Shown here: positions 30,170-54,335 of the stretch, piece by piece | Numbering within the stretch: position 1 is the first letter of the stretch | How the letters are laid out: the number at the start of each line of letters is the position of its first letter | IMG/VR virus record: IMGVR_UViG_3300025872_000056 | Location: 13-64,012 of that record | DNA from: a virus | Taxonomy: Duplodnaviria; Caudoviricetes | Reading direction: 5' to 3' (one strand) | DNA length: 64,000 nucleotides | Made by a program: the position numbers and the translations under genes | Notes under the pieces: model-generated | Databases searched by the model: none | Told to the model about the DNA's origin: nothing | Seen by the model: the letters and a program-made list of their open reading frames with translations, nothing else

Positions 30170-30310
30170 TTATTTATGAGACTTTCGCTTCTTTAATTTG
30201 TGTTTAAGTTCTTGATTTTCCATTGCAAGTTTACCAGCAGCCCGTGTGAGTTCAATCAATTGGGCTCGCAATTCATTTATTTGTTTGTCTTTGTCTTCTT
30301 TTTTGGGCAT
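30170..30310 (-). CDS. small coiled-coil protein (MPKKEDKDKQ...)
   Basis: ATG at 30310 just downstream of tmRNA. Confidence 0.55.
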   Translation of the reverse strand: MPKKEDKDKQINELRAQLIELTRAAGKLAMENQELKHKLKKRKSHK

Positions 30311-30319
30311 AAAAAATCC

Positions 30320-30549
30320 ACGGTTTTTCAGTCGCGGGAAAACCGGGAAACCCCACTGCTTAAGCAGCCATCCGCATTGGTGCGGCTTTTGTTGTTGCAA
30401 CTGTTTATTTACGACACTCGTTACCCGTGTCGGACATCTCCTTCTTCATTACTTTGCGCTGATCGATTCCTTTCGGACCCGTAAAGTGGATCCGGGGAGA
30501 TTCGAACTCCCGTGTCATACGCATTTCAATTCGATATCAACAATGCCAT
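30320..30549 (-). ncRNA. ssrA: circularly permuted (two-piece) tmRNA
   Basis: T-arm GGGAG-TTCGAAT-CTCCC plus CGGATCC-A precede GGGTCCG-AAAGGAATCGA; acceptor stem has G3.U70; tag ORF 30398-30360 ATTKAAPMRMAA*. Confidence 0.88.
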
Positions 30550-30555
30550 ATGTAT

Positions 30556-30564
30556 ATTATACCA
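30556..30564 (-). promoter_or_regulatory. extended -10 promoter of tmRNA
   Basis: TGGTATAAT. Confidence 0.6.
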
Positions 30565-30565
30565 A

Positions 30566-32752
30566 TTAATATGTTGGTTGTGGAGGCCAATTACTATTAT
30601 TCCCATAAGAATTATCATATCCCCAAGTATTTGATGCAAATGTTATAAATCTTTCTGCAATTAATTTCATACCTGTATACCCCCAATGGTATATGTCATT
30701 GTTTTCTAATTGTGCATCAGAAGTTTTTATCCAATAAGTTGGTCTTGGGATTATTGCTTCTATATCTGGGTTTCTATAGAAAGAAGTTATTTCTTGTAAA
30801 ACAGTATTATATAGACTTATATTTTCACCATATGAAGTCTGATCACCCCCATCATTTAATAAAGTAAATATTTTAACGCTATTTCTATAAAGATAATCCA
30901 AATTTTCTATCAAAGAACCAATATTTGTTCTAAAAGTTCCATCATCAACCCCCTCAATAGCATCATTCACACCAATCGATATGAATACATAAGTTTGTGG
31001 GGTCCTTCCAAATTTAGAAATCATGTCTTCAGATGCGATATCATAAGTATTGAACAATCTTGTTAAAGGTCTAAAGGGACCTTGTAATTTTGCAGAACCT
31101 GAAGTTAATCCTTTTTGCCCAATTTTAATTATATGAATATCTTTATTTCCAAATAAATTTACCATTTCTTTTGTTTTTGCTATTCCTAATTCAATTCCAT
31201 GTGGTGGTCCAGTTTGACCTTCAAATTCCCAGAATTTGTCAGTAACATTAGTTACTCCGGGAATTCCAAGAATATTATTTCCAGTTGAACCTATGTTTAG
31301 ATTTTCAAAAAATCCTAAATCATTATTAAATATTTTTATATTAGATTTTATACCAAGTTCAGATTGTAATGCTTGATAATTTTTTGCCAATCCAACTGCG
31401 TTTTCATCTCCATATATAATTACTAAAGGATGATGATTTGGATCTGATTTAAATGAAATTGAATTTGGGGCCAGTGCTGCACTATATCCATTATTATTAT
31501 AAGAAACAACAATATAAGAATAAGTTACTCCACTTAATAGTCCAGAAATATTAAATGTTGTATTTCCCACCAAATTTGAATTTTCTGAAATAGTAGTATT
31601 ATATAAAGAATATGTTTCCCCGTTTTGATATATGGTTTCTGGGTATGGAGGTGGATCCAAATAATTTACTAAAGAGATTTCATACGAAGAGACATCAAAG
31701 ATATATTCTTTTAATGCATCAAAAAATTGTCTTTCTTTTTGACTAGCAAGTGGACTGGACCATAAAGGGTCTCGTATTCCTTCACCTCCATAAAGTAAGG
31801 CAACGAAACAAGTCTCATTCAGGTGAGGTACATAACATAAGAGAGGTGTTCCGCTATCCCCCGCCCAAATTCCCACATTTGGATTTCTTATTGTTTGTTG
31901 TGTATTTGTAATTAAACCTTGATATGCAGCATTTGGTTTAATATTATGATCAAAATAATGAACTGGAGCATTGTGATTTTTTGTTACAACTACTATTCCT
32001 TGAGGGGTGAGACGGAATAAAGGAACATCATCTGGTATTCCATAAGTATTTAAAAATTTATATGGTTTTACATATTGTAATTCTTGATTTGTAAAAGCTT
32101 GATCCAATTCAAGTAAAGCCCAATCTTTTCCAAAATCATTAGGCCAATTATAGTTTGCAGGATATGTCGATCTATTATTAAAATTTATAACTGTAGTTGC
32201 TGTTTTTGAATAAGTTACATTATTTGTTCCGAGAAAATAAAAAGTTCCACTTATTGGATAACCGATAAAATGCTTTGTGCAAATTAAATGTTTTGGACTT
32301 ATTAAAATAAAAGCAGGAATTGCATTATTCCAATAATTAAAATCAGATGCTATTGTAAAATTACCAGAAGGACATCCCGGATAATAACATTGTTTTGTGC
32401 TATTTGTTACATAATTTTCAGTATAAGACTGACCCCACCAAAAATTTTTATCTACAGCAGTTGGATAATAGACGACATCATTTACAATTTTTACGCCAGA
32501 ACTATTTACACCAGCTTGTCCAGCAAATGTATCAAAACTGTATGTTGGTGCTCCTCTTCCCCTTAAAGATATGCCAGAAAAGTTTACAGAAAATGTAAAT
32601 CCATAAGAAGGATCATTGATGTATAAATTTGGATTAAGTCCACTAACTCCAACTTGTACATTGTTTGCATAATTAGTAGGATCTATTATTGCAGTTCCTG
32701 TATATGTGTACAAAGAATGTAAATTTGAATTAAGATTTACTATAAATGCCAT
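30566..32752 (-). CDS. multidomain protein: trypsin-like protease + half FN3 + SGNH/SASA-like domain
   Basis: ISPKHLICTKHF, DWALLEL, AGDSGTP; ISGLLSGVTYSYIVVSYN; GDENA..GIELG..GVNDA..DIYHW. Confidence 0.7.
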   Translation of the reverse strand: MAFIVNLNSNLHSLYTYTGTAIIDPTNYANNVQVGVSGLNPNLYINDPSYGFTFSVNFSGISLRGRGAPTYSFDTFAGQAGVNSSGVKIVNDVVYYPTAVDKNFWWGQSYTENYVTNSTKQCYYPGCPSGNFTIASDFNYWNNAIPAFILISPKHLICTKHFIGYPISGTFYFLGTNNVTYSKTATTVINFNNRSTYPANYNWPNDFGKDWALLELDQAFTNQELQYVKPYKFLNTYGIPDDVPLFRLTPQGIVVVTKNHNAPVHYFDHNIKPNAAYQGLITNTQQTIRNPNVGIWAGDSGTPLLCYVPHLNETCFVALLYGGEGIRDPLWSSPLASQKERQFFDALKEYIFDVSSYEISLVNYLDPPPYPETIYQNGETYSLYNTTISENSNLVGNTTFNISGLLSGVTYSYIVVSYNNNGYSAALAPNSISFKSDPNHHPLVIIYGDENAVGLAKNYQALQSELGIKSNIKIFNNDLGFFENLNIGSTGNNILGIPGVTNVTDKFWEFEGQTGPPHGIELGIAKTKEMVNLFGNKDIHIIKIGQKGLTSGSAKLQGPFRPLTRLFNTYDIASEDMISKFGRTPQTYVFISIGVNDAIEGVDDGTFRTNIGSLIENLDYLYRNSVKIFTLLNDGGDQTSYGENISLYNTVLQEITSFYRNPDIEAIIPRPTYWIKTSDAQLENNDIYHWGYTGMKLIAERFITFASNTWGYDNSYGNNSNWPPQPTY

Positions 32753-32763
32753 AGTTAACTTTC

Positions 32764-33093
32764 TTAAAATTTTATATTATAAAAAATTTTGAATCCTGTT
32801 TCTGTTTGAGAATTATCATACCAAAACAGAGTGGCACCTAAAGGCGACGACGATGCTGTTAATCCGCTTGGCATCAAAGAATAAGGTTCTTCAAAACCAT
32901 CTATATAAACAGAAATCATGTTACTTTGACCGGAAAAACCTATTTCATTATAAGATGTAGTAATAAAATAATAAGTTGCCCCAGTTGGGGTTGAAGGAAA
33001 AAATCCATTTAAAGTAGAACCAGTTCCAGATTTTGCAGGAAATGCGGATGCTAAACTAAAAGTAACACCGTTAAATAGGTATTGTTCTGGCAT
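32764..33093 (-). CDS. circularly permuted FN3 protein (C-half then N-half)
   Basis: GATYYFITTSYNEIGFS precedes PSGLTA..LFWYDNSQTETGFKIFY. Confidence 0.7.
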   Translation of the reverse strand: MPEQYLFNGVTFSLASAFPAKSGTGSTLNGFFPSTPTGATYYFITTSYNEIGFSGQSNMISVYIDGFEEPYSLMPSGLTASSSPLGATLFWYDNSQTETGFKIFYNIKF

Positions 33094-33126
33094 GATACAA
33101 TACTATTTATGGCTAGCATAAAATAC

Positions 33127-33209
33127 TGCGAGCAGAGGGATTCGAACCCCCGTAGGCATAGGCCAGCAGATTTACAGTCTGCCCTCGTTGACCTCTTGAG
33201 TATACTCGC
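33127..33209 (-). tRNA. tRNA-Tyr(GTA)
   Basis: Cloverleaf, GCAGA-CTGTAAA-TCTGC, long variable arm. Confidence 0.92.
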
Positions 33210-33212
33210 CAA

Positions 33213-33285
33213 CTCCTTGGACTGGAATCGAACCAGTGACATGAAAGTTAACAGCTTTCCGCTCTACCTACTGAGCTACCAAGGA
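33213..33285 (-). tRNA. tRNA-Asn(GTT)
   Basis: Cloverleaf, GAAAG-CTGTTAA-CTTTC. Confidence 0.92.
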
Positions 33286-33898
33286 ATACCAGTTTCCATT
33301 ATGTTCAATAACATCATAATAATTGGATTCTAATATTTGTCTAATTTTATTATTTAAGTCAAAATTTTGTATGGTTAATACTATAGTCTGAATTTTAATT
33401 TTATTTTCAATAATATAATTTACAAAATTTAATGGACTTTCACCATCTCCCAAAACTTCTCCTATGATTACATAATCATATTGTCTATAACCAAGACCGT
33501 TTACTGCGGCATTTAAGTTAATAGCCCAACCAGCATACCATTCTTTATGACGACAGAACTCACTGTAATTTTGCCAGTGTACTGTATTATTATCTACAAA
33601 TAATGTATTTGGTTTATCCGACACGGACTTTTACTTTTCCGTAATTGTCTTTCTCGGGATCCATAAATTCAACAGAAATAATTTTTCTATTATCAGGAAT
33701 GTCGCTTACTCTTGCTGGATCGCCAGCTTGAATAAAAGGACCACCTTCAAAATCGGCCATAGTCCCATCAGTAGTTCCTCTCATATAAAGAGATTCACCC
33801 TCTACAATATAAGTCTTAGTATCAACCTTTCGGATGATTCTTTCGACATTGTATCGACTGATTGATCTTGCGATTATTGGAGCTTCTTCTTTGAACAT
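33268..33898 (-). CDS. two hypothetical genes (33268-33624, 33614-33898)
   Basis: Coupled ORFs; the first ends inside tRNA-Asn. Confidence 0.55.
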
Positions 33899-34029
33899 TA
33901 TTATCCTTATTAAAAATTAGATCCCAATTTTTGGACCATGCCGCATAATTAACTGGGCGATAGGAATCGCCCTTTCCAGCGCCTGTTCCTTTGTGCATAT
34001 TATACCAAACTAAGAATTAAAAGCAACTA

Positions 34030-34266
34030 TTAATTGACTTCAAATGCCGAAACACCAGCAGTATTACTAGTCCATTTGCTAGTGTATATTGGAAAAAAAT
34101 AAGTAGTGCTAGCAGGAACATTTATTGAGACTTGTTGTTCCCCACCTGTAGGATTCATACAAAAACAAGTAATTCCTGCGGTTCCAGTCGCCGTAAATAA
34201 AACTCCTTTATTCATGGGCGAAACTGTATTTTGTGGTAAAGCATTTGTTCTTTTAAAGTTTAGCAT
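34030..34266 (-). CDS. small beta-rich late protein
   Basis: CCTAAATA upstream on minus strand. Confidence 0.55.
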   Translation of the reverse strand: MLNFKRTNALPQNTVSPMNKGVLFTATGTAGITCFCMNPTGGEQQVSINVPASTTYFFPIYTSKWTSNTAGVSAFEVN

Positions 34267-34297
34267 AATTATTCCTGAATTTTAAATATTTAGGTAT

Positions 34298-34305
34298 TAT
34301 AAATA
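34298..34305 (+). promoter_or_regulatory. T4-type late promoter TATAAATA
   Basis: Exact motif before 34314. Confidence 0.65.
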
Positions 34306-34313
34306 ATTTCACT

Positions 34314-34658
34314 ATGGACCCATTTATTCTACAATACAAACAGCGTATTCAGGAACTAACCGAACAGCTCGCAGAACTCAATGAAACTCTAGAAATTTAT
34401 GATGAAATTTTTGAGTATGTTGAGCCTGCATTCGATCAATTCTTGACAGAAAATACAGAAGAACTTTCTGAAGCCAAGAAAGAAGAAGATAAAAAAGATA
34501 AAAAATTACCACCTTTTATGAAGAAAAAGGCTGGCAATAAAATGAATGACAAAAAACTAAAAGAAAAAGAAAAGAAGGGCGGGAATGCTGGTAAAAAAGC
34601 AAAAATCGCCCGTCTTTTGAGAAAGAAAAAAGAAGAAGAAGAAAAGAAAAAGAAGTAA
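34314..34658 (+). CDS. late protein with acidic N-half and Lys-rich C-half
   Basis: Charge switch at LSE/AKK. Confidence 0.6.
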   Translation: MDPFILQYKQRIQELTEQLAELNETLEIYDEIFEYVEPAFDQFLTENTEELSEAKKEEDKKDKKLPPFMKKKAGNKMNDKKLKEKEKKGGNAGKKAKIARLLRKKKEEEEKKKK

Positions 34659-34868
34659 TTAAGAAATTTGCCGAACAGCTCTGCTCAAGGCAGAGGCTAC
34701 CCTGGCAAGATCGTCTTTAGTTCCCGTAATGAATACTGCATTTCGACCTTCTCCCTCAAGGAGGAGGTCGAACATGTTTTTATGCTCTTCAGACTTTGCG
34801 ATTGAGGTTACAAAAACTTCTCCGAGAGTAGTGTGCGTAGCGTTGCAGATGTTAAATGTTTTATTCAT
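34659..34868 (-). CDS. hypothetical protein
   Basis: GGAG RBS. Confidence 0.55.
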   Translation of the reverse strand: MNKTFNICNATHTTLGEVFVTSIAKSEEHKNMFDLLLEGEGRNAVFITGTKDDLARVASALSRAVRQIS

Positions 34869-34883
34869 ATAAATTTCTCCGAA

Positions 34884-34955
34884 TGCGGGTTAGGAGAATC
34901 GAACTCCTCTTTCCTGCTTGGAAGGCAGGAGTAATGGCCAATATACGAAACCCGC
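34884..34955 (-). tRNA. tRNA-Gly(TCC)
   Basis: Cloverleaf, CCTGC-CTTCCAA-GCAGG. Confidence 0.92.
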
Positions 34956-35029
34956 TTTATTTGGTATAATAATCCTTATAGGAATCAATAAGTATTGTAA
35001 AAAATAATCCAACGTTTAAAATTATTGAC

Positions 35030-35269
35030 TTAAATTTGCTCTTTAGAGTTTTCATGTGTTTTCCAAGCCTTTGATTCCCAAAATTTTGTCAAAGGAAGAT
35101 CATAGAACAAAGAACAATTATGCCAAATGCAATGTTTACCCTTAAGAACTGTAACACACCAATTTTTTTCTCCGGGAACAAGAGTTATGGTAACTTTGTA
35201 ACCGTGCTTTTCGACAGCCTGTTTAAATTCTTGATATTCTGCAGGAATTTTGGTTTTCTTGCGAGGCAT
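35030..35269 (-). CDS. hypothetical protein
   Basis: ATG 6 nt after TATAAT. Confidence 0.55.
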   Translation of the reverse strand: MPRKKTKIPAEYQEFKQAVEKHGYKVTITLVPGEKNWCVTVLKGKHCIWHNCSLFYDLPLTKFWESKAWKTHENSKEQI

Positions 35270-35306
35270 ATGCATATTATATCATAAAAATTGCCTTAGT
35301 CAAGTA

Positions 35307-35314
35307 TATAAATA
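35307..35314 (+). promoter_or_regulatory. T4-type late promoter TATAAATA
   Basis: Exact motif, followed by GAGGA RBS. Confidence 0.65.
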
Positions 35315-35332
35315 TATTACTGAGGACTATAA

Positions 35333-37420
35333 ATGGATTTTATTACCAGATACTATAAAACTTTGTCTGAAAATCTTCAAGCAAAAAAAGAAAATTTATT
35401 ACTTGAAGTTAGAAGAAGACAAGCAGGAACTCCGGTTGCCACTGCAAGTCAATTTTTAAATCCAGGAATGTTTCCACAAATACCTCAACAGGCTGTTCCA
35501 ATTTCACAGCAAACAACAACAGTTCCGACTCCGTTGAATCCCGCAAGACTTCCTGGAATGGGATGGGCTAAACTGTCTCCTCAACAAAATTTTAGTCCAA
35601 TGCCTCAGCAAACAACAGCAGTTCCTGGTGTTAATACTTTTGGCCCACCATCTCCTGCAGTTCCTGGTGTTAATACTTTTGGCCCACCATCTCCTGCAGT
35701 TCCTGGTGTTAATACTTTTGGCCCACCATCTCCTGCAGTTCCTGGTGTTGATACATTCGGACCTCCTTCGCCAGCAGTTCCTGGTGTTGATACATTCGGA
35801 CCTTTTTCGCCAGCAGTTCCTGGTGTTGATACATTCGGACCTCCTTCGCCAACAGGTCAAGTTACTCCGGTTGTTCCACTAGCTCAAACACCATCTTCTT
35901 CTTTAAGCAATATTCCTGGTATGGGATGGGTTCCACAACCCACTGTCAGTCCACAACCTTCATGGGTTTCACCTTCTTCTCCACCATCATCAGCCGCTCC
36001 AACAACAGCCCCTGCCCCAGCTCCATTTGCAGGACGTGGTCCAATGATGAGCAAAAAAGATCAAGCTTCCTATGATAAAATGGTTGGTGATATGATGAAA
36101 GCAAGAGGAATGCCAGTTCCCATGTTAAGAACAGGTAAAGGTGGAAATTACCAAGAATGGAGATCTGCAGTAGATGCAAGAAATGCTGCAATGCGTGATG
36201 CAAATATAGCAATCACACTAAGACAAAATCAGCTCAGAGATCAACAAACTCTTGCTAGACAAAATAGAGATGCAGCAAAAGCAGCTGGTGATGATGCTGC
36301 AGTAGCTCGTTATCAGCAAGAACTCAATGATATTAACAGATCTAGAGGAAATCTCAATAAAGATACGGGAAGGTATTCTCTCGGTTCTGATACAACATCA
36401 CAGGGAAGAATTGCAAACGACCAATTGCAGGCATCTTGGAAGAAAAAGCAAGAAGATTTCAAGGCTCGCACCGGAATGGATTATGACCCTTCAAATCCAC
36501 AGCATACAAGAGTTATGCAGAACCCCAACATGAGTCCTGAAGCAATGCAAACTGCTTTGAGTGTTGGTCAATTTAATAAAAATTATGCAACTCAAAATGC
36601 GGATCAAGCAAAAAGAATGGGCGAAACAGAAAGAAATATAGATCAATTAACATATGAAACCGAAAGAGCAAAAAATGATCCAGCATTTAGAAAAGAAATA
36701 AATGCAAGAGATGCTGAAAAGGCAAAACAAGATATGTACGCTGCTGCTGGAGGAAAGGAAGCATGGGAAGCTAGAGAAAATGCTGCACGGGATGGTCAGG
36801 TTAAAATCGTAACAGATATTATAGATGCTAAAAAAGCAGAATCAGATGAAATGAATAGAAAGGCAAGAGAAATAGGCGGGATGATGACCAAGGCAGAATT
36901 TGAAGCTTCTCCAGCAGGACAACAGGCAGAATTAGATAGATTGCGAAATCTAAGTGGTGTTCCTCAAATGCAGGCAAAAAGGGCAGCAGAACAAAGAGAA
37001 AAAGATAAAGAAACATTGGCTACAAATTATCCCGCGTTAAACATGGTTGGGGATGCAATAAGGCAAACTAAAAATCTTCCAACCACTCAACCAGAACAAT
37101 CACAACAAACTCCTGCTGAAACATTACCAGAGCCATCAGTAAATATGACTGGCAACAATATTTCACGCGCTAGAGCAAACAGTGCAAATACAACACCAAT
37201 TCAAAGAGCTACTGTTACTCCTCCTGCTCCCGGGGCAATTCCACCAGCTGGAAGACCAACACCGGCAGCACAGCCAACTGCGCCAATGAGTACTGGAGGA
37301 ATGAACACTCCTGCTGACATAAATGATCCACAGGCAAATGCAAGAAGACCTAGAGGAAGAGTTGTAACCGCAGCAGCTAGAAGCATGGGACCTAACAGCT
37401 CTGCTCCCCGTTTATCTTAA
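35333..37420 (+). CDS. Pro/Gln/Ala-rich late protein, possible internal head protein
   Basis: 695-aa ORF after late promoter; disordered and helical regions. Confidence 0.6.
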   Translation: MDFITRYYKTLSENLQAKKENLLLEVRRRQAGTPVATASQFLNPGMFPQIPQQAVPISQQTTTVPTPLNPARLPGMGWAKLSPQQNFSPMPQQTTAVPGVNTFGPPSPAVPGVNTFGPPSPAVPGVNTFGPPSPAVPGVDTFGPPSPAVPGVDTFGPFSPAVPGVDTFGPPSPTGQVTPVVPLAQTPSSSLSNIPGMGWVPQPTVSPQPSWVSPSSPPSSAAPTTAPAPAPFAGRGPMMSKKDQASYDKMVGDMMKARGMPVPMLRTGKGGNYQEWRSAVDARNAAMRDANIAITLRQNQLRDQQTLARQNRDAAKAAGDDAAVARYQQELNDINRSRGNLNKDTGRYSLGSDTTSQGRIANDQLQASWKKKQEDFKARTGMDYDPSNPQHTRVMQNPNMSPEAMQTALSVGQFNKNYATQNADQAKRMGETERNIDQLTYETERAKNDPAFRKEINARDAEKAKQDMYAAAGGKEAWEARENAARDGQVKIVTDIIDAKKAESDEMNRKAREIGGMMTKAEFEASPAGQQAELDRLRNLSGVPQMQAKRAAEQREKDKETLATNYPALNMVGDAIRQTKNLPTTQPEQSQQTPAETLPEPSVNMTGNNISRARANSANTTPIQRATVTPPAPGAIPPAGRPTPAAQPTAPMSTGGMNTPADINDPQANARRPRGRVVTAAARSMGPNSSAPRLS
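35618..35851 (+). repeat. 6 x 39-bp in-frame tandem repeat (AVPGV[N/D]TFGPPSP)
   Basis: Three copies of one DNA variant then three of another. Confidence 0.95.
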
Positions 37421-37610
37421 TATATTTTTTTGAAGAAGCTTTTTCTGAAGAAAAGTATTCATCAAAAATTTTCTTTAATTCTTCTTTTCTTTTGTCCATT
37501 TTATTGTATTCTTTCGAAGAGTCTTTTCCATCAGTTTCATATCTCCCCAATTTATATGAAACATGGGCAAATTCGTAAATTAGTTCTTCAAGATCAAAAT
37601 TATTTTTCAT
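37392..37610 (-). CDS. hypothetical protein
   Basis: ATG 6 nt after TATAAT. Confidence 0.5.
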   Translation of the reverse strand: MKNNFDLEELIYEFAHVSYKLGRYETDGKDSSKEYNKMDKRKEELKKIFDEYFSSEKASSKKYIKINGEQSC

Positions 37611-37660
37611 ATTGTTATTATACCATTCCTGTACGATTTTGAGAAGGGATAAATATCTCT

Positions 37661-38497
37661 ATGGGCCGTCATATAAATGAAAATTTCTTAAATAAATTTC
37701 TTGGAAAGAATCTTCTTACCGAAGATCAAAAGCGTGCTGTTGCCCTAAAAAATAGAAAATCAAATTATTTAAAAAATTATTATAAAAATCTTGAAGAAAA
37801 AAATTCTGGAAAACTTTCTAAAAATATTAATGAAGATGTAACTACAAGCATTAAAAAGATTTTCTATCGCACCAAAGATCAATTAAATGAATCCAGATCT
37901 GGAATGCAAAATCTAATTCCATACTATACACCATATGGAATTATTTTCTTCAATAAAGATACTCAGGAATGGACAAATACATTTGGTCAAGTAGTAGACC
38001 CAATGGACTTCATGAATGATTTTTCTCATGATGACAGTTCCTCATCTGGAGATGGCGAAACCAGTCAAAACATAATAGTTCCACCACTTCCACCAGAATT
38101 ATATCCAAATCCCCCAAAAGATTTACAAGTTGTATCTTTCAATAATACAGGAGCAACTTTATCGTGGATCGATGATTCTATAAACGAGGAAGGATTTAAA
38201 CTTTTCTATTATCGGGCAAGGCCGGGGGATTATCTTCCAGATTCTTTACCACAGAATATTAATTCTTTTGTTACTGTAGGATCTTCAGATACCGATGTAT
38301 CACTACAATTTATAGATGAAAATTTATCCGAAACAGGATTTAGAATTTATTATAGAGAATATATAGATGGTTTAACTTCTCCAGCTCCACCAGTTTCATT
38401 TTCAGCAGAAAGAATTAATACAAACACAATACAATTAAATTGGATAGATACTGCAACAGATGAAGATGGGTTTAAAGTTTTTTATTCAGAGCCTTAA
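37661..38497 (+). CDS. hub protein with three tandem N-half FN3 modules
   Basis: LSWIDDSINEEGFKLFY, LQFIDENLSETGFRIYY, LNWIDTATDEDGFKVFY with no C-halves; GATAAATA upstream. Confidence 0.75.
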   Translation: MGRHINENFLNKFLGKNLLTEDQKRAVALKNRKSNYLKNYYKNLEEKNSGKLSKNINEDVTTSIKKIFYRTKDQLNESRSGMQNLIPYYTPYGIIFFNKDTQEWTNTFGQVVDPMDFMNDFSHDDSSSSGDGETSQNIIVPPLPPELYPNPPKDLQVVSFNNTGATLSWIDDSINEEGFKLFYYRARPGDYLPDSLPQNINSFVTVGSSDTDVSLQFIDENLSETGFRIYYREYIDGLTSPAPPVSFSAERINTNTIQLNWIDTATDEDGFKVFYSEP

Positions 38498-38498
38498 T

Positions 38499-41147
38499 AT
38501 GAGCGAAGAAAAATTATTTTATAACAATAAAGAATACATTTTGGGGGCAACAGTTTCATTTAAAAGTGGAACTGGAGGGATGACATATTCTTTATCGGGA
38601 TTATGTGGATACAAAAATTATAATTTAATTTTAGTTTCTTTTAAAAATGAAGGAATATCTTCTAATATTGTAGGTCCCTATTATTTGAATTATTTTATTG
38701 ATGAATACAGAGAGCCTATTTACACATTTTTGTGGAATCATCCTGCTGACTATAGGTTGGATAATTTACATCAAAGAACTTATAGCCAAAGAAACGTAGA
38801 AAATTTAATAAGCCCCAGCCAAGCAAGTCCAATTTCTAATTTAGAAAACTGGGAAAGAGAATATTATGATGGAGCTTGGGGAAATTATGCAGCAAATTCT
38901 TATTTTACATCCCAAAAAGGATTTACAGCACCAGACGGATCAACTAGCGCAACAAGATTTAGAGTAAATGGATGGACTGGTTATATATTACATCGACTAA
39001 TAACAGAAGTTAATGGTAAAAATGAATATATTGAGCTTAAAAAGGGAATTACTTATTATCTTTCATTCTGGTTAGATATGAGTAGTGGAAGGACGCTTGG
39101 TGAAATTAGCCCAAGAACACATGATGGCCCAAATGGAATTTGGGCAACAAATCCCCCTTGGCCCCTATCTGTGAGTCAAATATCACCCGTTTATCGCCCC
39201 GAAGGACTTGGCAGTTATCCTTATTTGGCACCAGTTGGAACTACTGGTTGGACGAGATTTGTTTATGGGATAAGATCCACAACTGGGGGCACAAACTATG
39301 TAAACATATATTTATTATCAACTGGTAATCTTGATGGCTCAACATACGATTGGTATTTCTGGGGAGCCCAGTTGGAAGAAGAATCAGGCCCATCTGCAAC
39401 CTCATATAAACCAAATATAATTTCTGATGTAAATTTAGTTGGTAGTGTTTATGACAGAGACACCGGAAATACTCTTTATGATAATTCAATTGAAAATATT
39501 CCAACATGGTGTTCTAACAATGGAATAACATATTTTTGGCCATTAATACAACTATGGGATTCCACGAACTATGATATGCCAACATATAGCGCAAATGATT
39601 ATTATGATTTTTATACTAAACGAGCAATAAACATATTTAAATTATTACCTAAAAAACAAAGAGCAATTAGACCCAGAGGGTTAGATCATCCAATTATGTT
39701 TGAAATGTATGATGATGCTATAACTGGATTAACCTTTGGACCATATCCCGGAGTAACATATACTTATTGGGGAATAACAGAAGGATACAAATATTACACA
39801 ATCCCTTCTGCGACAGCATATATGGGACACGTATGGCCTGTAACAGGAATTTCTGCAGGAATAACAGCTTGGAATAAGTTTTTCAATAACTTTCACTCTA
39901 GAGGGGCAACTATAGACTATGTATTCTTTGATTACGAATTTGTCCCATTCTCAACATTGTATGTTCAAAAAGATCAAACAGCTTTAGGTTGGACGGCTGC
40001 AAGAAAAATATTTGAAGATCCAAGATATTCACAACCTTGGAATGGAGTGACTGCTCTAAAAGATATAATGGATAATCTTGGTGCTACGCTTATTAATATG
40101 GAAGATGCTTATTATAATAACTACAATCATTTGGCTTGGTCTAGAACCATTGGTTATCAGACCCAAAAGGCATATGAATTAATTTTGACACCAGGTTTAA
40201 GTGCTTATTTCCCAGAGGCAACAGTTTCAAATTACAATTATTTCCATCAACCTGATGGTATAACAAATGGTTCTTATGATCAGGCAACCCATCAAATACC
40301 CGGGGACCTCAGAGCGGGCAATGCATCATCACCAGTATTATATGGTGATGTATGGTCATTTTATTCAGATATTCCTGGAGGAGGCCAATCTCAAGCTAGA
40401 CTTCCCCTTTCAGACCCAACTAGATTCGAAAAATTTATTAATACTGGAGGACCTACGGTTTCAACAGGAACGTTGACAAGGCCATGGATTGCATTCATGT
40501 TGGCGATGCTGCAAATGAGATGCACAAAGGCTGCCGAACCAAATGTGCCAATTACTCCGTGGATCGGAAATGTAAGATGGCCGGGAGAAGCATATGGAGG
40601 AAGTTATGGGCGTCCTGTAAATGCTTGGTCGGATACTAAATTGGGGTATAATGAAAAATATGGAAGCACTTATCATATTGAAGGCGGTAATTCAGCTTAT
40701 TATTATGAAATGATAAGGCATTGCATGTTAATGGGAACAAAAGCATTCCCTATGTTTAATGGTTCTTTGTATGATGATGTTAGAACTCCGGGGTGGACTT
40801 CAGGAAATCCTTCAGCGACAAACAGAAGACTATATTTCTTATCAGGCATGACCACCCACATGGAAGAAATTATTCCTGTTGATAACGTAATTCATGAAGT
40901 TCATAATCTGATTGGTGGGTTTACTTTAACAACAGCAGATACCAGCAGACCAAATTGGCTTGCTCCATATTTTGCTAGCGCAGCTCCCGGAATAAATGGA
41001 ACAACATGGTGGTGGCGAGTTACTGTTGGTTCCACCTATACAATAAATGTTCAAGGAACAACTTTGTCTGGAATTTCTGGGCCTTGGGGTGCTTGGGTGT
41101 CAACTACTGGGCCAACCTTAGCAGGGGTAAACATTTCAATAGTTTAA
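38499..41147 (+). CDS. C-half FN3 + carbohydrate-binding-like + possible glycoside hydrolase-like virion protein
   Basis: LSGL..Y..ILVSFKNEG; TAPDGSTSA..WGAQLE; IDYVFFDYE. Confidence 0.6.
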   Translation: MSEEKLFYNNKEYILGATVSFKSGTGGMTYSLSGLCGYKNYNLILVSFKNEGISSNIVGPYYLNYFIDEYREPIYTFLWNHPADYRLDNLHQRTYSQRNVENLISPSQASPISNLENWEREYYDGAWGNYAANSYFTSQKGFTAPDGSTSATRFRVNGWTGYILHRLITEVNGKNEYIELKKGITYYLSFWLDMSSGRTLGEISPRTHDGPNGIWATNPPWPLSVSQISPVYRPEGLGSYPYLAPVGTTGWTRFVYGIRSTTGGTNYVNIYLLSTGNLDGSTYDWYFWGAQLEEESGPSATSYKPNIISDVNLVGSVYDRDTGNTLYDNSIENIPTWCSNNGITYFWPLIQLWDSTNYDMPTYSANDYYDFYTKRAINIFKLLPKKQRAIRPRGLDHPIMFEMYDDAITGLTFGPYPGVTYTYWGITEGYKYYTIPSATAYMGHVWPVTGISAGITAWNKFFNNFHSRGATIDYVFFDYEFVPFSTLYVQKDQTALGWTAARKIFEDPRYSQPWNGVTALKDIMDNLGATLINMEDAYYNNYNHLAWSRTIGYQTQKAYELILTPGLSAYFPEATVSNYNYFHQPDGITNGSYDQATHQIPGDLRAGNASSPVLYGDVWSFYSDIPGGGQSQARLPLSDPTRFEKFINTGGPTVSTGTLTRPWIAFMLAMLQMRCTKAAEPNVPITPWIGNVRWPGEAYGGSYGRPVNAWSDTKLGYNEKYGSTYHIEGGNSAYYYEMIRHCMLMGTKAFPMFNGSLYDDVRTPGWTSGNPSATNRRLYFLSGMTTHMEEIIPVDNVIHEVHNLIGGFTLTTADTSRPNWLAPYFASAAPGINGTTWWWRVTVGSTYTINVQGTTLSGISGPWGAWVSTTGPTLAGVNISIV

Positions 41148-41153
41148 AGCAAA

Positions 41154-42350
41154 ATGACAGACAAATTAATATTTAACCAGTACGAATATACACTAGCTCA
41201 AACTTTACCAGCATCTTCTGGTACAGGTGCTACAATACAAACAACCATAACTGGCTTAAGTGATACAAAACAATATGAATTTATAGTAGTAGCATTTAAT
41301 AATTATGGTTCTACTGTATCTGGACCAATTACAGTTTATACTGCGCCACCACAAGATCCAAATTTATTAAAAGCATCTGTTGATACTTTAAACTGGACAG
41401 TCGTGCCAATTTCTTCAAATGGATTAAGAATCATATGGAATGATTATTTTGTTGAAGAATTAAATTATAATCTTTATATATCAACTGATAACCAAAGCTT
41501 TGATTTTTTAAATTCTGTGTCGGAATATCTAGGATCATATGATGTAGAAGATTTAATTTTAGGAAATTCTTATTATATTTTGTTGAATGCTTTTATTGGA
41601 ACAGGACCAAATGAAGGTCAATTGTTCTTGACATCATCTACTGGCCCTGTTCAAGTTCTTGAAATTCCAAAACCTCCTATAAATTTTCAATATACTTATT
41701 TTGATAACGATGAAGTAACATTATCTTGGGACTACCAAGATGAAATGTTTAAACAAACTGAAATTTTTTATTCTGATGACGGATTAAATTATTCTTTCAT
41801 ATATGATGCAAGCGCAGAACCTACAACAAAAGTAACCATATCTGGGTTAACTTCTGATATTACTTGGTGGTTTAAAATTAGAACTAAAAATTCCAATGGG
41901 AGTTCAGATTTTGCTGGTCCAGTTGTTATTGCAACTTTACCCGATCCTCCAGATAGCCCATTTGGTCTTACTGGTTTTGCTGGCATATCTTCTTACATAC
42001 AAATAAATTGGTCCACCGGAGCAACAAATGAAGATGGATATAATATTTTTAGATCTACAGATAATGTAAATTATACTAATATTCAAACAATAGGGCGTGA
42101 TAATCTTTCTTTTATTGATGTAGAAAAAAGCGAAAACACTCTTTACTATTACAAAATAAATGCATTTAATGAAGGTGGAACTTCGGGATTTTCAAATATA
42201 GTTGGTATTACTTCTGCTATCCTGCCAATTGTTGCACCAACCGGACCAACAGGAATATCTGGATCTGTTTTTTACAATACAATAAATATTTCTTGGATTG
42301 ATCAATCGACAAATGAATTTGGTTATAAAATTTATGTAAAACAAGGATAA
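41154..42350 (+). CDS. FN3 repeat protein: C-half + three intact FN3 + N-half
   Basis: ITGLSDTKQYEFIVVAFNNYG start; intact domains; ends ISWIDQSTNEFGYKIYVKQG*. Confidence 0.85.
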   Translation: MTDKLIFNQYEYTLAQTLPASSGTGATIQTTITGLSDTKQYEFIVVAFNNYGSTVSGPITVYTAPPQDPNLLKASVDTLNWTVVPISSNGLRIIWNDYFVEELNYNLYISTDNQSFDFLNSVSEYLGSYDVEDLILGNSYYILLNAFIGTGPNEGQLFLTSSTGPVQVLEIPKPPINFQYTYFDNDEVTLSWDYQDEMFKQTEIFYSDDGLNYSFIYDASAEPTTKVTISGLTSDITWWFKIRTKNSNGSSDFAGPVVIATLPDPPDSPFGLTGFAGISSYIQINWSTGATNEDGYNIFRSTDNVNYTNIQTIGRDNLSFIDVEKSENTLYYYKINAFNEGGTSGFSNIVGITSAILPIVAPTGPTGISGSVFYNTINISWIDQSTNEFGYKIYVKQG

Positions 42351-42351
42351 A

Positions 42352-43155
42352 ATGACAGATACTTTATTTTACGAAGGTTCAACATATTATTTGCAAAAAA
42401 CTTTAGGACCATTTTCTGGTACTGGGTTTATTTCTACATCATTAGAAAATTTAAATACAGGAACCACATATTCAATTCTTGTTGCCGCTTTCAATAACGT
42501 TGGCTTATCTGACATTTCTACACCAATTGTTTTCAAAACAGATTCCGCCGCGAATAGACCTCCAATAATTTGTACATGTTGGTTTTGGTATTATCCAGTT
42601 TTAAGAAATATGGTACTTTATCAAACCGGAAATACTGTAAACATGATTCATTCTTCAGAAGATATGACTAATTCTGTTGCATGGGTAGGCGCACAAAGAT
42701 TTAACATTACTAGTGGCCATACAGCGCCTGATGGATCAACCGGAGCATTTGCAATCGTAGGTGCTAGTGGCTCCTGGGGAGCGGCTTTATATCAAGAATT
42801 GGCGTTAGACTATGGAAATACTTACATTTATTCTTTTTATCATAAAGTGACAGATGGTGCTACTGGATTTAGAATTGGAGCTTACTACAGATCAACTAGT
42901 GCTGTTCCTAGTGCTAATACAGTGTTCGGCACACATTCACTTCCATTCAGACAAATTTTACCAGTAACAGGTCCAATGGAAACACTCCCAACTGTACGAT
43001 ATCCTACTGGTGCAACAGGATGGCAAAGATTTGCTTTTGAGGTGTATGCATTTACTCCACATCGTTATGAGATAGTTTTTCAAGCTTGGTATAACAGCAC
43101 AAATCGATATCCACAATATTTCTGGGGCCATCAGTTAGAGAAAGTAACACCATGA
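42352..43155 (+). CDS. C-half FN3 + carbohydrate-binding-like protein
   Basis: LENLNTGTTYSILVAAFNNVG; TAPDGSTGA..WGHQLE. Confidence 0.7.
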   Translation: MTDTLFYEGSTYYLQKTLGPFSGTGFISTSLENLNTGTTYSILVAAFNNVGLSDISTPIVFKTDSAANRPPIICTCWFWYYPVLRNMVLYQTGNTVNMIHSSEDMTNSVAWVGAQRFNITSGHTAPDGSTGAFAIVGASGSWGAALYQELALDYGNTYIYSFYHKVTDGATGFRIGAYYRSTSAVPSANTVFGTHSLPFRQILPVTGPMETLPTVRYPTGATGWQRFAFEVYAFTPHRYEIVFQAWYNSTNRYPQYFWGHQLEKVTP

Positions 43156-46100
43156 CGTATCCTCGTCCATATCACCCGACTACTAAAAATTTAATTCCTT
43201 ATTATAAAAATATTCAACCAGCATATTATGATGTCAACGGAAATACTTTATATGAAGGAACTGTAGAAAAGCAATTGGCTTTAGCAAATGGGTTGAGTTT
43301 TGTAGCACCAACTGTACATACTCTTCGGGGGTATGATACTGTTTCTGGTAATGCTGGATTTACCCTTTCAGTAAATAATATTGAAAGTTTAAATTTTTTG
43401 AAACAATTAGGTGAAGGAAAAAGAGCCATTCACCCCCCATCTTTTCCTACATGGTATTTTTATGATGATATACTTCCCCTATCTGGACAGGGATTCAGAA
43501 ATTGGATTACAAATGATTGGGGAAGATCTGGTGCAACAGGATATTACAACAATCCTTGGCCCAATACTGGGGTTGAAAGATGCAAAGAAACTTGGACTAG
43601 ATGGATTAATTATGTGCATTCTCAAGGAATTACCATAGATGCAGTAAACTGGGACACCGAAGGAGATCCGTTTAGATATGCCCCTTCTTCAGCGCTACGA
43701 GAAATGATAAAATCCAATCCTCAATATAGTTCTCCGTGGAGAGGACATACTTCTTGGAAAAGTTTGTATGAGTATGAATTAGGAAGTACTGCAGATGTTT
43801 ACAATTCTTTTGCATGGTACGCTATGGCAGAACGTGGTCGTTCAAATATGTACGATGATACACATATAGAACCATATTTGTCAAAATACCCCAAAGGAAT
43901 TATGGGAAATTATAATAGCTACGAAAGTGAAAGAATTGTTGGTTTTACAATGATTCATGAAGTTAATGAAGATGGTTACATCCTTCCAGAAAGAGGAACA
44001 ATTGGCAATGCACACGCTCCGGTATTATATGGAACATTTAGACAATATGATTGGGAATATTATAGCCCCGGATATGCAACAAGCAGACCGGGCCCTCTTG
44101 CTAGATTTGATTATAAAATAATAGGAAACATTACAAGTCCATATGATTTGCCACCAACAACAGGCGCATGGTCTAGTTTTATGCATTCTATTGCTACCAT
44201 GAGATCCGTAAAGAGAACTAATCCAAATGATTTCATTACTCCATATATTGGAGGACCAATGTTTATTGGCGAATATCATTTTAAGGGAGTTGGGTTTACA
44301 CCCTTTGCCTCATACTTTGGTCAAGCACCAGCAGAAGTTCTTCATAATCGTTGGTACAGACAGAATGTAGATTTTAACAAAATAAGAAGCGGTATAACAG
44401 GGCCGGATGGTTCGACTACAGGATTGGCAATTAATTTTTCTAAAGATGCAGGATTATCAGCAGCATTGGAATTTTATTATACAGGACTTACAGCAGGATT
44501 AACTTATATTTTTTCATATTCATTGGATGTTACCAGAGGATTTACTGGAACATTATTTGGTATGAGACAATTTGTTCCAACAACTTATAATTTACAAAGA
44601 GGATTAACATATCAGCAAATTCTTCCTGTAGTTGGGCCAGTACAAAATAGAATTCATGGAATTTCATATCCTCCAGAAAGTGTTGGATGGACAAGATTTG
44701 CATGGAAATTCCACATTCCACCATCTTTTGATCCTTTAGATCCAGTTGAAAATAATTCATTCTCTGTATATGCAATGTTGACTGGCACAGCTCAACCATA
44801 TACGCAAATCTCAGGGACAACAACCTATATTTGGAATCCTAGTCTTGAAATAGAATCTTCTCCACAAAATATAAACATTCCAATTACAACAATAAATTCT
44901 GAGGACAATATCTTAAGATGGCGCGAAGGTCCTCCCGGAGCAATGACGATAACAGAAAAAGGATACAACAAACGCCATGCAATATATTTTACAAGAAGAG
45001 GAGGCAACAGTGGTTATTATTATGAGTTAGCAAAGCATTGTTGTTTGCTTGGTTCCAAAATGTTGATCGCGTTCAATGCCGCAGAAAATATAGATCACTC
45101 ATACCCCGGGGTAAGAACTTTGCTTGGGAATAATTATTCAGAATTCGGCGGTGCTAAAACAACACCATACTATTTGTCTGGGGATACATATCATGAAGTT
45201 TTTCCAATTAATTTGAACAATGCTTTAAAGGAGTTTCATGATAGAGTTGGAGGGTTTACGCTTGCCACAGCAGACATGTCTCCAATTGACTACAGTTTAC
45301 CATATGTGTTAAATGGAGCGCCGGATATAAATGGAATAACTTGGTGGTGGAGACTTACAGTTAAACCCGGTTATACTTTCTATTGTAATGGTGAAACTTT
45401 AGCAGCGCCTAACAAATTAGGAACATGGATTCCTACAAGTACAAAAGAGTTTACAGGAGTAACTTTAGCTTGGGATGAATGGTCATATCCTCCAGAACCA
45501 ACTTTACCTACTCCAGTTAAGGAAATAAATTTCCTTACAATGTCTAGTCTTAATGATTTGGTTGCTTCTGGTTGCACGTTCTCACGCGGTAGTACTGCAT
45601 CCTTTATTGGATCAAGTGGTTATTTAAATTATGCCTCAATAAATCAACCAAGATTCCATTATGATCCAGATACTCTGCAGCCCAGAGGTTTGATGATTGA
45701 AGATTCTGCTACAAACATTTTGAACTGGAGCGAAAGCTTTGCTTCAACAGGTGGGTCGGTAAATAATTGGTCTGATACTAACATTACAAGATCACAAGGT
45801 TCGATTTCTCCATCTGGGGAAACATACGCAATCAAATTTACTGCGGATATAGCAAACGGAACTTTGGTTTCTACAAATCCTCCCGGAGGAAATGTATTGA
45901 GAACTTTCAGCTTCTGGTTGAAAGGAATTACTGGAAACGAAACAGTTCAATATACTTTTAACGGAGGAACATCGTGGCATGGCATAACAGGAATTAAAAC
46001 TTCTTGGAAGAGATTCGTTGCTGGACCAATTTATCCAGATGGAACAACGGCATTCAATCATCACGTTGGGTGGCGCATTGCAAATACAGGAAGCTCTGTT

Positions 46101-46754: not shown

Positions 46755-46757
46755 ATT

Positions 46758-46765
46758 TATAAATA
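46758..46765 (+). promoter_or_regulatory. T4-type late promoter TATAAATA
   Basis: Exact motif 5 nt before ATG 46771. Confidence 0.7.
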
Positions 46766-46770
46766 TTACT

Positions 46771-46947
46771 ATGAAAAGCTTTCATCAATTTTTAATCGAA
46801 GAAGAAAAACTGACATCCGAACAGGAAGCACAACTTGATAAATTAATTGATAATCATTCACAAAGAATGACTATGGAAGCTGCGGTAGATGAAGCAAGAA
46901 AGCAAATGGGATTAAAGCCATTAAATAGAAAGAAATCAAAGAAATGA
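46771..46947 (+). CDS. small putative internal head protein (MKSFHQFLIEE...)
   Basis: Not in ORF track; capsid-targeting-like N-terminus. Confidence 0.65.
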   Translation: MKSFHQFLIEEEKLTSEQEAQLDKLIDNHSQRMTMEAAVDEARKQMGLKPLNRKKSKK

Positions 46948-48170: not shown

Positions 48171-48244
48171 TGATCCTGACGGGATTCGAACCCGTGTTAT
48201 GGCCTTGAAAGGGCCGTGTCCTAGACCGACTAGACGACAGGACC
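48171..48244 (-). tRNA. tRNA-Glu(TTC)
   Basis: Cloverleaf, GGCC-CTTTCAA-GGCC. Confidence 0.9.
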
Positions 48245-48250
48245 AGAGTT

Positions 48251-51651: not shown

Positions 51652-51761
51652 ATTGTACCACATAGCAATGCTAAAGTCAAGCGTCAAGTTCCAAATGAAA
51701 GTTATTGCAGAATTTTTGCACCGACGAACTTAAAATAAATTTGTCCAAAGTGCTGCCCAAT

Positions 51762-51797
51762 AAAAAACTCCCCACAAGTTTTTAGGCTTGTGGGGAG
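51762..51797 (-). terminator. rho-independent terminator
   Basis: CTCCCCACAAG/CTTGTGGGGAG stem then T6. Confidence 0.85.
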
Positions 51798-54325: not shown

Positions 54326-54335
54326 GACTTTCCTT

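What the first reader, a model, noticed from the sequence alone, without database searches (positions are those of the whole stretch)
31448..42545. Split-FN3 plug-and-socket system: five orphan N-halves and five orphan C-halves across six proteins
Seen: an intact FN3 in 41154-42350 reads PDSPFGL..INWSTGATNEDGYNIFR|STDNVNYTNI..NTLYYYKINAFNEGGTS. The same fold occurs cut at the marked loop. Orphan N-halves (P..L...L.W.D....E.GF.I.Y): three in tandem at the end of 37661-38497, one at the end of 41154-42350, one at the end of 33093-32764. Orphan C-halves (L.(F/Y)NG..Y.L...SGTG...SGL....Y...V.A.N..G.S): starts of 38499, 41154, 42352 and 33093, plus one inside 32752-30566 (about 31645-31448). The counts match 5:5. 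Inference: halves from different chains complete each other's beta-sandwich. The three-socket hub would recruit three arms, two of which carry a further socket, displaying carbohydrate-binding, hydrolase-like and protease/esterase payloads, like a scaffoldin on the virion. I do not know of a described phage system like this.
Basis: partly seen in the sequence, partly recalled or inferred. Interest (0 to 1): 0.93.

Follow-up and report, generated by a model that had tools for sequence, protein, structure and literature searches.

The report
Split FN3 joints link phage fibre proteins
In this uncultured freshwater phage and its relatives, small fibronectin-type domains are encoded in two pieces on separate tail-fibre-region proteins, and the pieces most likely snap together to hang enzyme- and sugar-binding arms on a common anchor, a docking trick with only scattered precedents.

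Summary

The split is real and old:
- Independent contigs carry the same junctions.
- Eleven hub homologues stop in the same region, ten of them within 5 residues of strand C.
- In nine related viral loci, genes again end in an N-half. In 13 of 15 cases the next gene opens with a C-half, with stop-to-ATG spacing of -1 to 24 nt.

Reading one junction through with X gives a confident FN3 fold: pLDDT 87, against 39 for the hub alone. The two-chain prediction scored ipSAE 0.57 against a best control of 0.01, a verdict of "weak support".

The most likely explanation is non-covalent fold completion that docks cargo proteins onto anchors. Binding has not been shown.

The 5:5 count does not generalise: relatives show 2:3, 2:1, 3:4, 2:3 and 1:2 on partial contigs.

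Precedents exist: the Tuc2009 BppU-BppA composite domain and HCF-1 Fn3n/Fn3c. Earlier notes of this scan describe similar split Fn3 joints in other, sequence-unrelated phages.

Verdict: a new variant of a known kind.

The parts
37661..38497 (+). Hub/anchor protein, 278 aa: a conserved N-terminal region (aa 1 to about 125), a linker, then three tandem orphan FN3 N-halves
   Evidence: There are 15 homologues. Of the 12 aligned, 5 have three N-halves and 7 have two. AF2 on the hub alone gives pLDDT 39. The PDB profile search matches only the N-terminal parts of FN3 domains.
38096..38218 (+). Socket 1 (orphan FN3 N-half, strands A-B-C)
   Evidence: Alignment A3. HMM score 77 bits. Pfam fn3 profile 2-42 of 84.
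38225..38365 (+). Socket 2 (orphan FN3 N-half)
   Evidence: This unit is absent from the seven two-socket homologues.
38369..38494 (+). Socket 3 (orphan FN3 N-half). It ends the hub 1 nt before the next gene's ATG.
   Evidence: Complex prediction with the p38499 plug: ipSAE 0.57 against a best control of 0.01. The read-through fold has pLDDT 87.
38499..41147 (+). Cargo protein, 882 aa: plug (nt 38499-38696), a jelly-roll-like domain, and a large glycoside-hydrolase-like region
   Evidence: Homologues P0160 and P0079 start at the equivalent Met. GH-like leads score 0.87-0.90 only.
41154..42350 (+). Adaptor, 398 aa: plug (41154-41351), whole FN3 domains (41664-41930 and 41934-42218; a third at about 41360-41650 is unconfirmed), and a terminal socket (42228-42347)
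   Evidence: The same plug-FN3-FN3-socket layout occurs in P0156, P0168 and P0171 and in the L010 295-aa gene.
42352..43155 (+). Cargo protein, 267 aa: plug (42352-42549) plus a jelly-roll-like domain. It starts 1 nt after the adaptor's stop codon.
   Evidence: Read through with X, Pfam fn3 spans the junction at 26.2 bits, above the cut-off of 25. It aligns to p38499 aa 4-294.
43152..46754 (+). 1200-aa protein without a plug. It is a paralogue of p38499 aa 312-880 with extra C-terminal domains, and overlaps p42352 by ATGA.
   Evidence: phrog_5939 'tail protein', E 1.6e-30.
32764..33093 (-). Minimal adaptor, 109 aa: plug (32896-33093) followed by a socket (32767-32883)
30566..32752 (-). 728-aa protein: a trypsin-like N-terminal part, an internal orphan C-half (31445-31654), and a GDSL-like C-terminal part. 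It starts 11 nt after the 109-aa adaptor.
   Evidence: Homologue P0071 has the same layout.

Best explanation
The cluster encodes virion (probably tail) proteins that are joined non-covalently by completing split FN3 domains.

An anchoring protein ends in strands A-B-C of an FN3 (the 'socket'). A cargo protein begins, at its first residues, with the remaining strands C'-E-F-G plus an extra hairpin (the 'plug'). Neither half folds alone. Together they form one beta-sandwich whose core uses the conserved Trp of strand B and the conserved Tyr of strand F.

The hub offers three sockets in tandem. Two adaptors (398 aa and 109 aa) carry a plug and a further socket, so branched or chained assemblies can form. 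These would display a glycosidase-like arm, sugar-binding-like arms and a protease/esterase-like protein.

The gene order puts the socket at the 3' end of one gene and the plug at the 5' end of the next, with stop and start 1 nt apart. That suggests coupled translation and co-folding of cognate halves.

Shown: the sequence anatomy, its conservation, and the predicted folds.
Inferred: physical binding, which plug enters which socket, the location on the tail, and co-translational assembly.
For: 1. The halves are complementary parts of Pfam fn3. The plug profile matches strands E-F-G of solved FN3 domains.

2. Read through with X, Pfam fn3 spans both junctions:
- P0228 residues 10-100 = profile 2-75, 21.4 bits.
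- P0229 residues 13-102 = profile 10-83, 26.2 bits, above the cut-off of 25.
- The phage's own whole FN3 scores 15.1 bits.

3. AF2 on the read-through P0228 gives pLDDT 87 and pTM 0.80. All listed Foldseek PDB hits are FN3 domains aligned over 100-131 columns, and phage FN3 proteins top the viral library. The hub alone gives pLDDT 39.

4. Two-chain prediction: ipSAE 0.57, 0.56 and 0.57 against a best control of 0.01. Plug pLDDT is 71-72, against 43 when the socket is replaced. Socket pLDDT is 73-74, against 42-45 with unrelated partners.

5. Hub homologues down to 40% identity: 11 of 12 aligned sequences (the hub plus 11 homologues) end within 5 residues of strand C. No fused hub was found among longer proteins.

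6. The plug starts at residue 1-4 in 46 of 78 proteins examined, with varied cargo.

7. In the window plus nine related loci, 13 of 15 genes that end in a socket are followed directly by a gene that starts with a plug (11 of 13 without two duplicate loci). Spacing is -1 to 24 nt, with TAA or TGA stops.

8. Whole FN3 domains of the same subtype exist uncut in giant proteins P0025 and P0139.

9. Contigs of an independent run are identical across both junctions.
Against: - The complex tool's verdict is only 'weak support'. At scores of 0.60 or under, such passes are more often wrong than right unless the guess was likely beforehand, and no contacts were given.
- The single-chain fold cannot tell cis from trans. 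Its alignment also held two whole FN3 rows, which may bias it toward that fold.
- Socket and plug counts are unequal in relatives: 2:3, 2:1, 3:4, 2:3 and 1:2.
- One C-half is internal to p32752, not N-terminal.
- p33093 and p41154 hold both halves, so they could close on themselves or polymerise.
- Orthologous loci are not independent observations.
- There is no expression, proteomic or binding data.
- The tail location rests on weak PHROG labels.
Confidence: 0.7

Rival explanations
1. Same-chain or same-kind completion. Proteins that hold both halves (p33093, p41154) close on themselves or chain head-to-tail, and tandem N-halves of the hub pack against each other. In that case the halves would not mediate hub-to-cargo docking.
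For: - p33093 is a C-half, then about 10 linker residues, then an N-half. By my estimate from FN3 geometry, that linker might just span the domain.
- p41154 has both ends.
- The hub has 2-3 tandem N-halves.
Against: - Anchors with a single socket and no plug exist (L009, L010, L011, L014).
- Cargo proteins with a plug and no socket are the majority: 46 of 78 have a plug, but only 6 of 78 have a terminal socket.
- The hub alone is predicted to be unfolded, pLDDT 39.
- Adjacency of socket and plug across genes holds in 13 of 15 cases.
Confidence: 0.1
2. The plug is an ordinary autonomous N-terminal anchor domain that binds some other virion site. The terminal N-halves would be remnants kept because gene boundaries inside a conserved FN3 coding stretch serve as recombination points for swapping fibre cassettes.
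For: - Plugs outnumber sockets in several contigs.
- Several near-identical plugs within one genome head different cargo.
- Conserved N-termini on variable receptor-binding proteins are typical of modular exchange (PMC13352976, passages).
Against: - The plug is predicted to be unfolded without the socket: pLDDT 43 against 71-72.
- Sockets keep the FN3 core residues and an exact end point down to about 30-40% identity.
- Joined halves give a complete FN3.
- The cassette-exchange idea is compatible with fold completion rather than opposed to it.
Confidence: 0.12
3. The pairs are really single genes. The stops would be sequencing or assembly errors, or would be bypassed by frameshifting or read-through, giving one polypeptide with a whole FN3.
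For: Stop and ATG are 1 nt apart at both window junctions, and the downstream frame is +1.
Against: - An independent run's contigs are identical over both junctions.
- Spacing varies from -1 to 24 nt in relatives, with different stop codons.
- Every plug begins at a Met.
- Hub homologues from other sources stop in the same region.
- No longer fused hub was found, which is weak evidence.
Confidence: 0.03

Closest known systems
Lactococcus phage Tuc2009 baseplate tripod, BppU-BppA joint (PMC4742702; abstract and passages read)
   Same: Two separately encoded phage baseplate proteins build one composite beta-sandwich. A C-terminal extension of the anchoring protein completes a sheet of the cargo protein's domain, the composite resembles a titin domain, and the cargo carries a carbohydrate-binding module.
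   Different: [quoted passage not shown] Here three strands (about 40 residues) are donated to the N-terminal plug. Sockets occur in tandem and on adaptors, the gene boundary falls in the C-C' loop, and no sequence relation was found. Tuc2009 is solved by crystallography; this system is only predicted.
HCF-1 Fn3n/Fn3c self-association module (10.1101/577890, one passage read; the original structure paper is recalled, not seen)
   Same: A half FN3 on one polypeptide and the remainder on another associate non-covalently to make whole FN3 repeats.
   Different: HCF-1 is a eukaryotic nuclear protein. It is made as one chain and then cleaved, and it has one joint, with no tandem sockets and no exchangeable cargo. 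The split position was not compared here.
Branched receptor-binding-protein systems: KP32/K11 branching domain plus N-terminal conserved peptide (PMC13352976, abstract and passages); CBA120 tailspike complex (PMC8825819, PMC11414711, listing only)
   Same: Secondary receptor-binding proteins carry a short conserved N-terminal docking element that fits a site on a primary anchor, giving branched, exchangeable arms.
   Different: In those systems a folded T4 gp10-like branching domain binds a peptide of about 29 residues. Here no such family was detected, and the joint is a single fold shared between chains.
Donor-strand complementation in chaperone-usher pili (recalled knowledge, no call)
   Same: An incomplete Ig-like fold is completed by strands from the next subunit, which allows chains to form.
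   Different: Pili donate one strand, need a chaperone and usher, and build homopolymers. Here about half a domain is exchanged between different proteins.
Cellulosome cohesin-dockerin scaffoldin
   Same: A scaffold with several docking sites displays enzymes and carbohydrate-binding modules.
   Different: No cohesin or dockerin family is present. Both cellulosome partners are complete folds. One structural neighbour cluster of the protease-like domain does carry Dockerin_1 in 73% of its members, a lead only.

Membership tests
Fibronectin type III domain (Pfam PF00041), as a split domain | The N-terminal part matches strands A-C of the profile | tested here: met
   Hub 151-195 = profile 2-42 of 84. 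Hub aa 234-278 alone = profile 2-38, 14.9 bits. The PDB profile search of the hub hits only the N-terminal parts of FN3 domains.
Fibronectin type III domain (Pfam PF00041), as a split domain | The C-terminal part matches strands E-G of the profile | tested here: met
   p42352 29-61 = profile 51-83. Plug profile positions of about 25-65 match titin, Dscam and PTPR FN3 domains.
Fibronectin type III domain (Pfam PF00041), as a split domain | The joined halves reach Pfam's gathering score (25 bits) with one match across the junction | tested here: inconclusive
   P0229 scores 26.2 bits (met). P0228 scores 21.4 bits (below the cut-off). Both matches span the junction.
Fibronectin type III domain (Pfam PF00041), as a split domain | Seven-stranded beta-sandwich fold | tested here: met
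   The AF2 read-through model has pLDDT 87 and 8 strands. All listed Foldseek PDB hits are FN3 domains, prob 1.00, TMq 0.48-0.73.
Inter-chain fold completion (Tuc2009 BppU-BppA type) | Each partner is incomplete or unstable alone | tested here: met
   By prediction only. Hub alone pLDDT 39. Plug pLDDT 43 with an unrelated partner against 71-72 with the socket.
Inter-chain fold completion (Tuc2009 BppU-BppA type) | The two chains form one domain in a complex | tested here: inconclusive
   ipSAE 0.57 against a best control of 0.01, verdict 'weak support', no contacts reported.
Inter-chain fold completion (Tuc2009 BppU-BppA type) | Physical binding and presence in the virion | not testable with these tools
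   Needs pull-down, a structure or virion proteomics. No RNA holder was listed.
Branched RBP system of KP32/CBA120 type | Conserved N-terminal docking element on secondary proteins | tested here: met
   The plug starts at residue 1-4 in 46 of 78 proteins, and at the first Met of the 19 N-terminal plugs among the 20 listed (the other is internal).
Branched RBP system of KP32/CBA120 type | T4 gp10-like branching domain or XD-type assembly domains on the primary protein | tested here: not met
   No such Pfam or PHROG family was found on any of the eight proteins.
Cohesin-dockerin scaffoldin | Cohesin and dockerin domains | tested here: not met
   No Pfam hit at E <= 0.1.

The most novel reading that the evidence does not exclude
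A clade of uncultured freshwater phages uses a class-coded split-FN3 docking system.

- Socket classes pair with matching plug classes. Examples from the sequences: sockets ending ..ETEFKIYYRT, ..NEDGFLIYYRGIT or ..NExGFKIFY.
- Tandem sockets and plug-socket adaptors build branched scaffolds.
- Several cargo proteins with near-identical plugs compete for one socket, so one virion population displays a mixture of enzymes and adhesins.
- Cognate halves co-fold as the ribosome passes from one coupled gene to the next.

If true, this would be a natural, programmable protein-joining kit, distinct from peptide-in-groove docking.
Probability: 0.35. Interest if true: 0.85.

Novelty: new variant of a known kind. 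Interest (0 to 1): 0.68.

Why it matters
If the halves do bind, this is a compact, modular way for phages to mount and swap host-recognition and depolymerase arms: about 40 residues on the anchor and about 65 on the cargo.

It would help explain how large uncultured phages build branched fibre sets. It gives annotators a rule: a gene that ends in half an FN3 predicts its partner. It also offers a natural split-domain pair for protein engineering and for re-targeting phages in laboratory hosts.

It also shows that 'truncated' domains at gene ends, usually dismissed as errors, can be functional joints.

Tried and rejected
- Relatives of the hub: none in viral contigs with the protein or the alignment. 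None in genome contigs. None in GenBank phages. Only a 1073-base fragment in metagenome contigs (L005).
- p42352 and p38499 have no tblastn match in GenBank phages. A megablast of 30500-47000 found only a 64-base chance-like match.
- Alignment A5 was misaligned, with hub N-halves laid on the plug region. It was dropped and replaced by A6.
- The profile search of the C-half was dominated by giant multi-FN3 proteins that match only profile positions of about 25-63. Only rows covering the profile start were used.
- The hub N-terminal HMM found nothing in the nine loci, so their anchors are not demonstrably homologous to this hub.
- No RNA holder was listed for the stretch, so there is no evidence on expression either way.
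- Literature searches turned up no paper that describes a split FN3 as a phage fibre joint. Supplementary files were not consulted.
- All 25 pairings were not tested, because only one complex job is allowed.

Full report
**What the window is**

The window is nearly the whole of a 64,012-base linear IMG/VR virus record that CheckV rates 39% complete. It carries T4-like replication genes: DNA polymerase, UvsX-like recombinase, DnaB-like helicase, primase and ribonucleotide reductase. Near-identical DNA occurs in several freshwater metagenome runs. No cultured relative was found for the hub, p38499 or p42352 in GenBank phages.

Translation of the ORFs and alignments A2 and A3 show five segments of about 40 residues that align with the first half of the phage's own whole FN3 domains. 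Each stops 2-4 residues after the strand-C motif.
- Three are in tandem at the end of the 278-aa hub (37661-38497).
- One is at the end of the 398-aa protein (41154-42350).
- One is at the end of the 109-aa protein (33093-32764).

Five segments of about 65 residues align with each other and with the second half of FN3.
- Four begin at the first Met of 38499, 41154, 42352 and 33093.
- One lies inside the 728-aa protein 32752-30566, at aa 370-436.

Pfam gives matching partial hits. HMMs built from the halves find no further copy among 1421 six-frame ORFs of the window. The two plus-strand junctions read TAA-n-ATG with the downstream frame shifted by one. On the minus strand the 109-aa gene is followed after 11 nt by the 728-aa gene.

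**The stops are real and conserved**

- Contigs of a run that is not flagged as a possible source (X5) are identical to the window across both junctions: records 37600-39902 and 41757-42423, with no differences and no gaps.
- The hub has 15 database relatives. I aligned 12 and left out three rows of 184-188 aa with 66-67% coverage. Five have three N-halves and seven (40-49% identity) have two. Eleven of the 12 end within five residues of strand C, and P0005 has 13 more residues.
- A search among longer proteins found no fused hub. That is weak evidence, as the tool itself notes.

**The plug is a widespread N-terminal module**

I ran a profile search of 1.84 billion representatives and a word-index search among longer proteins, then mapped the hits with HMMs.
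- The plug begins at residue 1-4 in 46 of 78 proteins examined; 3 of these are the window's own.
- They fall into size classes of about 250-300, 800-900 and 1050-1100 aa.
- Six of the 78 end in an orphan N-half. Three of those (P0156, P0168, P0171, 292-294 aa) have the layout plug, two FN3 domains, socket, which mirrors the window's 398-aa adaptor.
- The remaining hits are long multi-FN3 proteins that match only the E-F-G part of the profile.
- Two of them (P0025, P0139) hold uncut FN3 domains of the same subtype, including the SGTG-type loop. This shows what the intact domain looks like.

**Related loci**

An alignment of the 882-aa cargo family (A7) retrieved nine IMG/VR loci at about 27-43% identity. 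L008 duplicates L006, and L013 is a shorter copy of L012.
- In every locus at least one gene ends, within 0-3 residues, in one or two orphan N-halves.
- Counting the window, 13 of 15 socket-ending genes are followed directly by a plug-starting gene (11 of 13 without the duplicates).
- The two exceptions are p33093, which is followed by the gene with the internal C-half, and the L010 295-aa adaptor.
- Stop-to-ATG spacing in these pairs runs from -1 to 24 nt, with TAA or TGA stops. This rules out a common recoding signal.

Sockets and plugs fall into recognisable classes that travel together. Because the loci are orthologous, this does not prove specificity.

**The counts do not generalise**

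Sockets to plugs by locus:

| Locus | Sockets:plugs |
|---|---|
| Window | 5:5 |
| L006 / L008 | 2:3 |
| L007 | 2:1 |
| L009 | 1:1 |
| L010 | 3:4 |
| L011 | 2:3 |
| L012 | 1:2 |
| L013 | 1:1 |
| L014 | 1:1 |

Whole-record searches of five of the records gave the same numbers. Those five searched records are 11-35% complete. Several near-identical plugs in one genome suggest that cargo proteins may share sockets.

**Fold predictions**

- The hub alone is predicted without confidence: mean pLDDT 39, with the socket 3 region at 30-51.
- I read the hub-p38499 junction through with X at the break. With a 16-row alignment (A6), the 116-residue product folds with mean pLDDT 87 and pTM 0.80 into eight strands.
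- All listed Foldseek PDB matches are FN3 domains over 100-131 aligned columns. Phage FN3 proteins lead the viral library.
- Pfam fn3 spans both junctions, at 21.4 and 26.2 bits. The halves alone score 14.9 bits and nothing, and the phage's own whole FN3 scores 15.1 bits.
- As two chains, hub 234-278 plus p38499 1-70 scored ipSAE 0.57, 0.56 and 0.57 against 0.00, 0.00 and 0.01 for the controls. The runs agreed in at least 96% of contacts, and the partner pLDDT was at least 71. The tool's verdict is 'weak support', and it warns that passes at 0.60 or under are more often wrong than right unless the guess was likely beforehand.
- Both chains lose confidence with unrelated partners: 43, and 42-45.

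**Interpretation**

The most economical reading is inter-chain completion of one FN3 fold, used to dock cargo on anchors (confidence 0.7).

Gene adjacency suggests three pairs: hub socket 3 with p38499, the p41154 socket with p42352, and the p33093 socket with the internal C-half of p32752. That would leave hub sockets 1 and 2 for the plugs of p41154 and p33093. This wiring is inference only.

Payload labels are leads only:
- trypsin-like for p32752 aa 1-365 (feature score 0.97)
- a weak GDSL hit below the cut-off
- glycoside-hydrolase-like neighbours at 0.87-0.90 for p38499
- phrog 'tail protein' for p43152

p42352 plus p43152 together align in order with p38499. This is a second split, between domains, in the same cluster.

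**Comparison with what is known**

- Tuc2009: the BppU C-terminal hairpin completes a sheet of BppA domain 2, and the composite resembles a titin domain (PMC4742702, passages). This is a solved phage precedent for a shared beta-sandwich joint.
- HCF-1 assembles whole FN3 repeats from a half repeat and one-and-a-half repeats on separate subunits (10.1101/577890, one passage).
- KP32-type systems dock a conserved N-terminal peptide on a gp10-like branching domain (PMC13352976). No such domain was detected here.
- Earlier notes of this scan describe similar split Fn3 joints in other phage genomes. A sequence look-up found no look-alike of p38499 among them, so this appears to be an independent family.

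The finding is therefore a new variant of a known kind. Its distinguishing features are an N-terminal plug, a three-strand socket, tandem sockets, plug-socket adaptors, and a gene boundary held in the C-C' loop across a clade.

Noticed in passing
window 42352-46754: p42352 (aa 3-264) and p43152 (aa 20-374 and 594-773) align in order with the single 882-aa p38499. The second arm is thus split between domains at an ATGA overlap. Homologues of 267-270 aa keep the same end (..QLEKVTP).
   Followed up: partly
window 48170-64000: GC rises from 32-42% to 44-51% at about 48.2 kb, next to tRNA-Glu. The region is poor in long ORFs and holds five tRNA genes.
   Followed up: no
window 30269-30577 (-): ARAGORN calls a permuted tmRNA (tag ATTKAAPMRMAA*) directly downstream of the 728-aa gene.
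   Followed up: no
window 35333-37420 (+): A 695-aa protein upstream of the hub carries six tandem copies of a 13-residue Pro-rich unit and a long Lys/Gln/Ala-rich stretch. It has no Pfam or PHROG family.
   Followed up: no
window 33127-33286 and 34884-34955 (-): tRNA-Tyr and tRNA-Asn sit immediately upstream of the 109-aa adaptor gene, and tRNA-Gly lies 1.6 kb further on.
   Followed up: no
window 30569-32752 (-), aa 1-365: The nearest structural cluster of the protease-like part is a set of viral proteins of which 73% carry Dockerin_1. This hints that other phages mount a similar cargo through a different docking module.
   Followed up: no
L010 5828-8341; L011 12597-14453; L012 8131-9993: A second kind of anchor in relatives: proteins of 619-838 aa with an FN3 array that end in a socket (..NEDGFLIYYRGIT) and are followed 1 nt later by a plug gene. 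From the sequence alone, the N-terminus of the L010 protein resembles the hub's N-terminal region.
   Followed up: partly
window 7231-16640: A T4-like replication module: DNA polymerase, UvsX-like recombinase, DnaB-like helicase, primase and ribonucleotide reductase.
   Followed up: no
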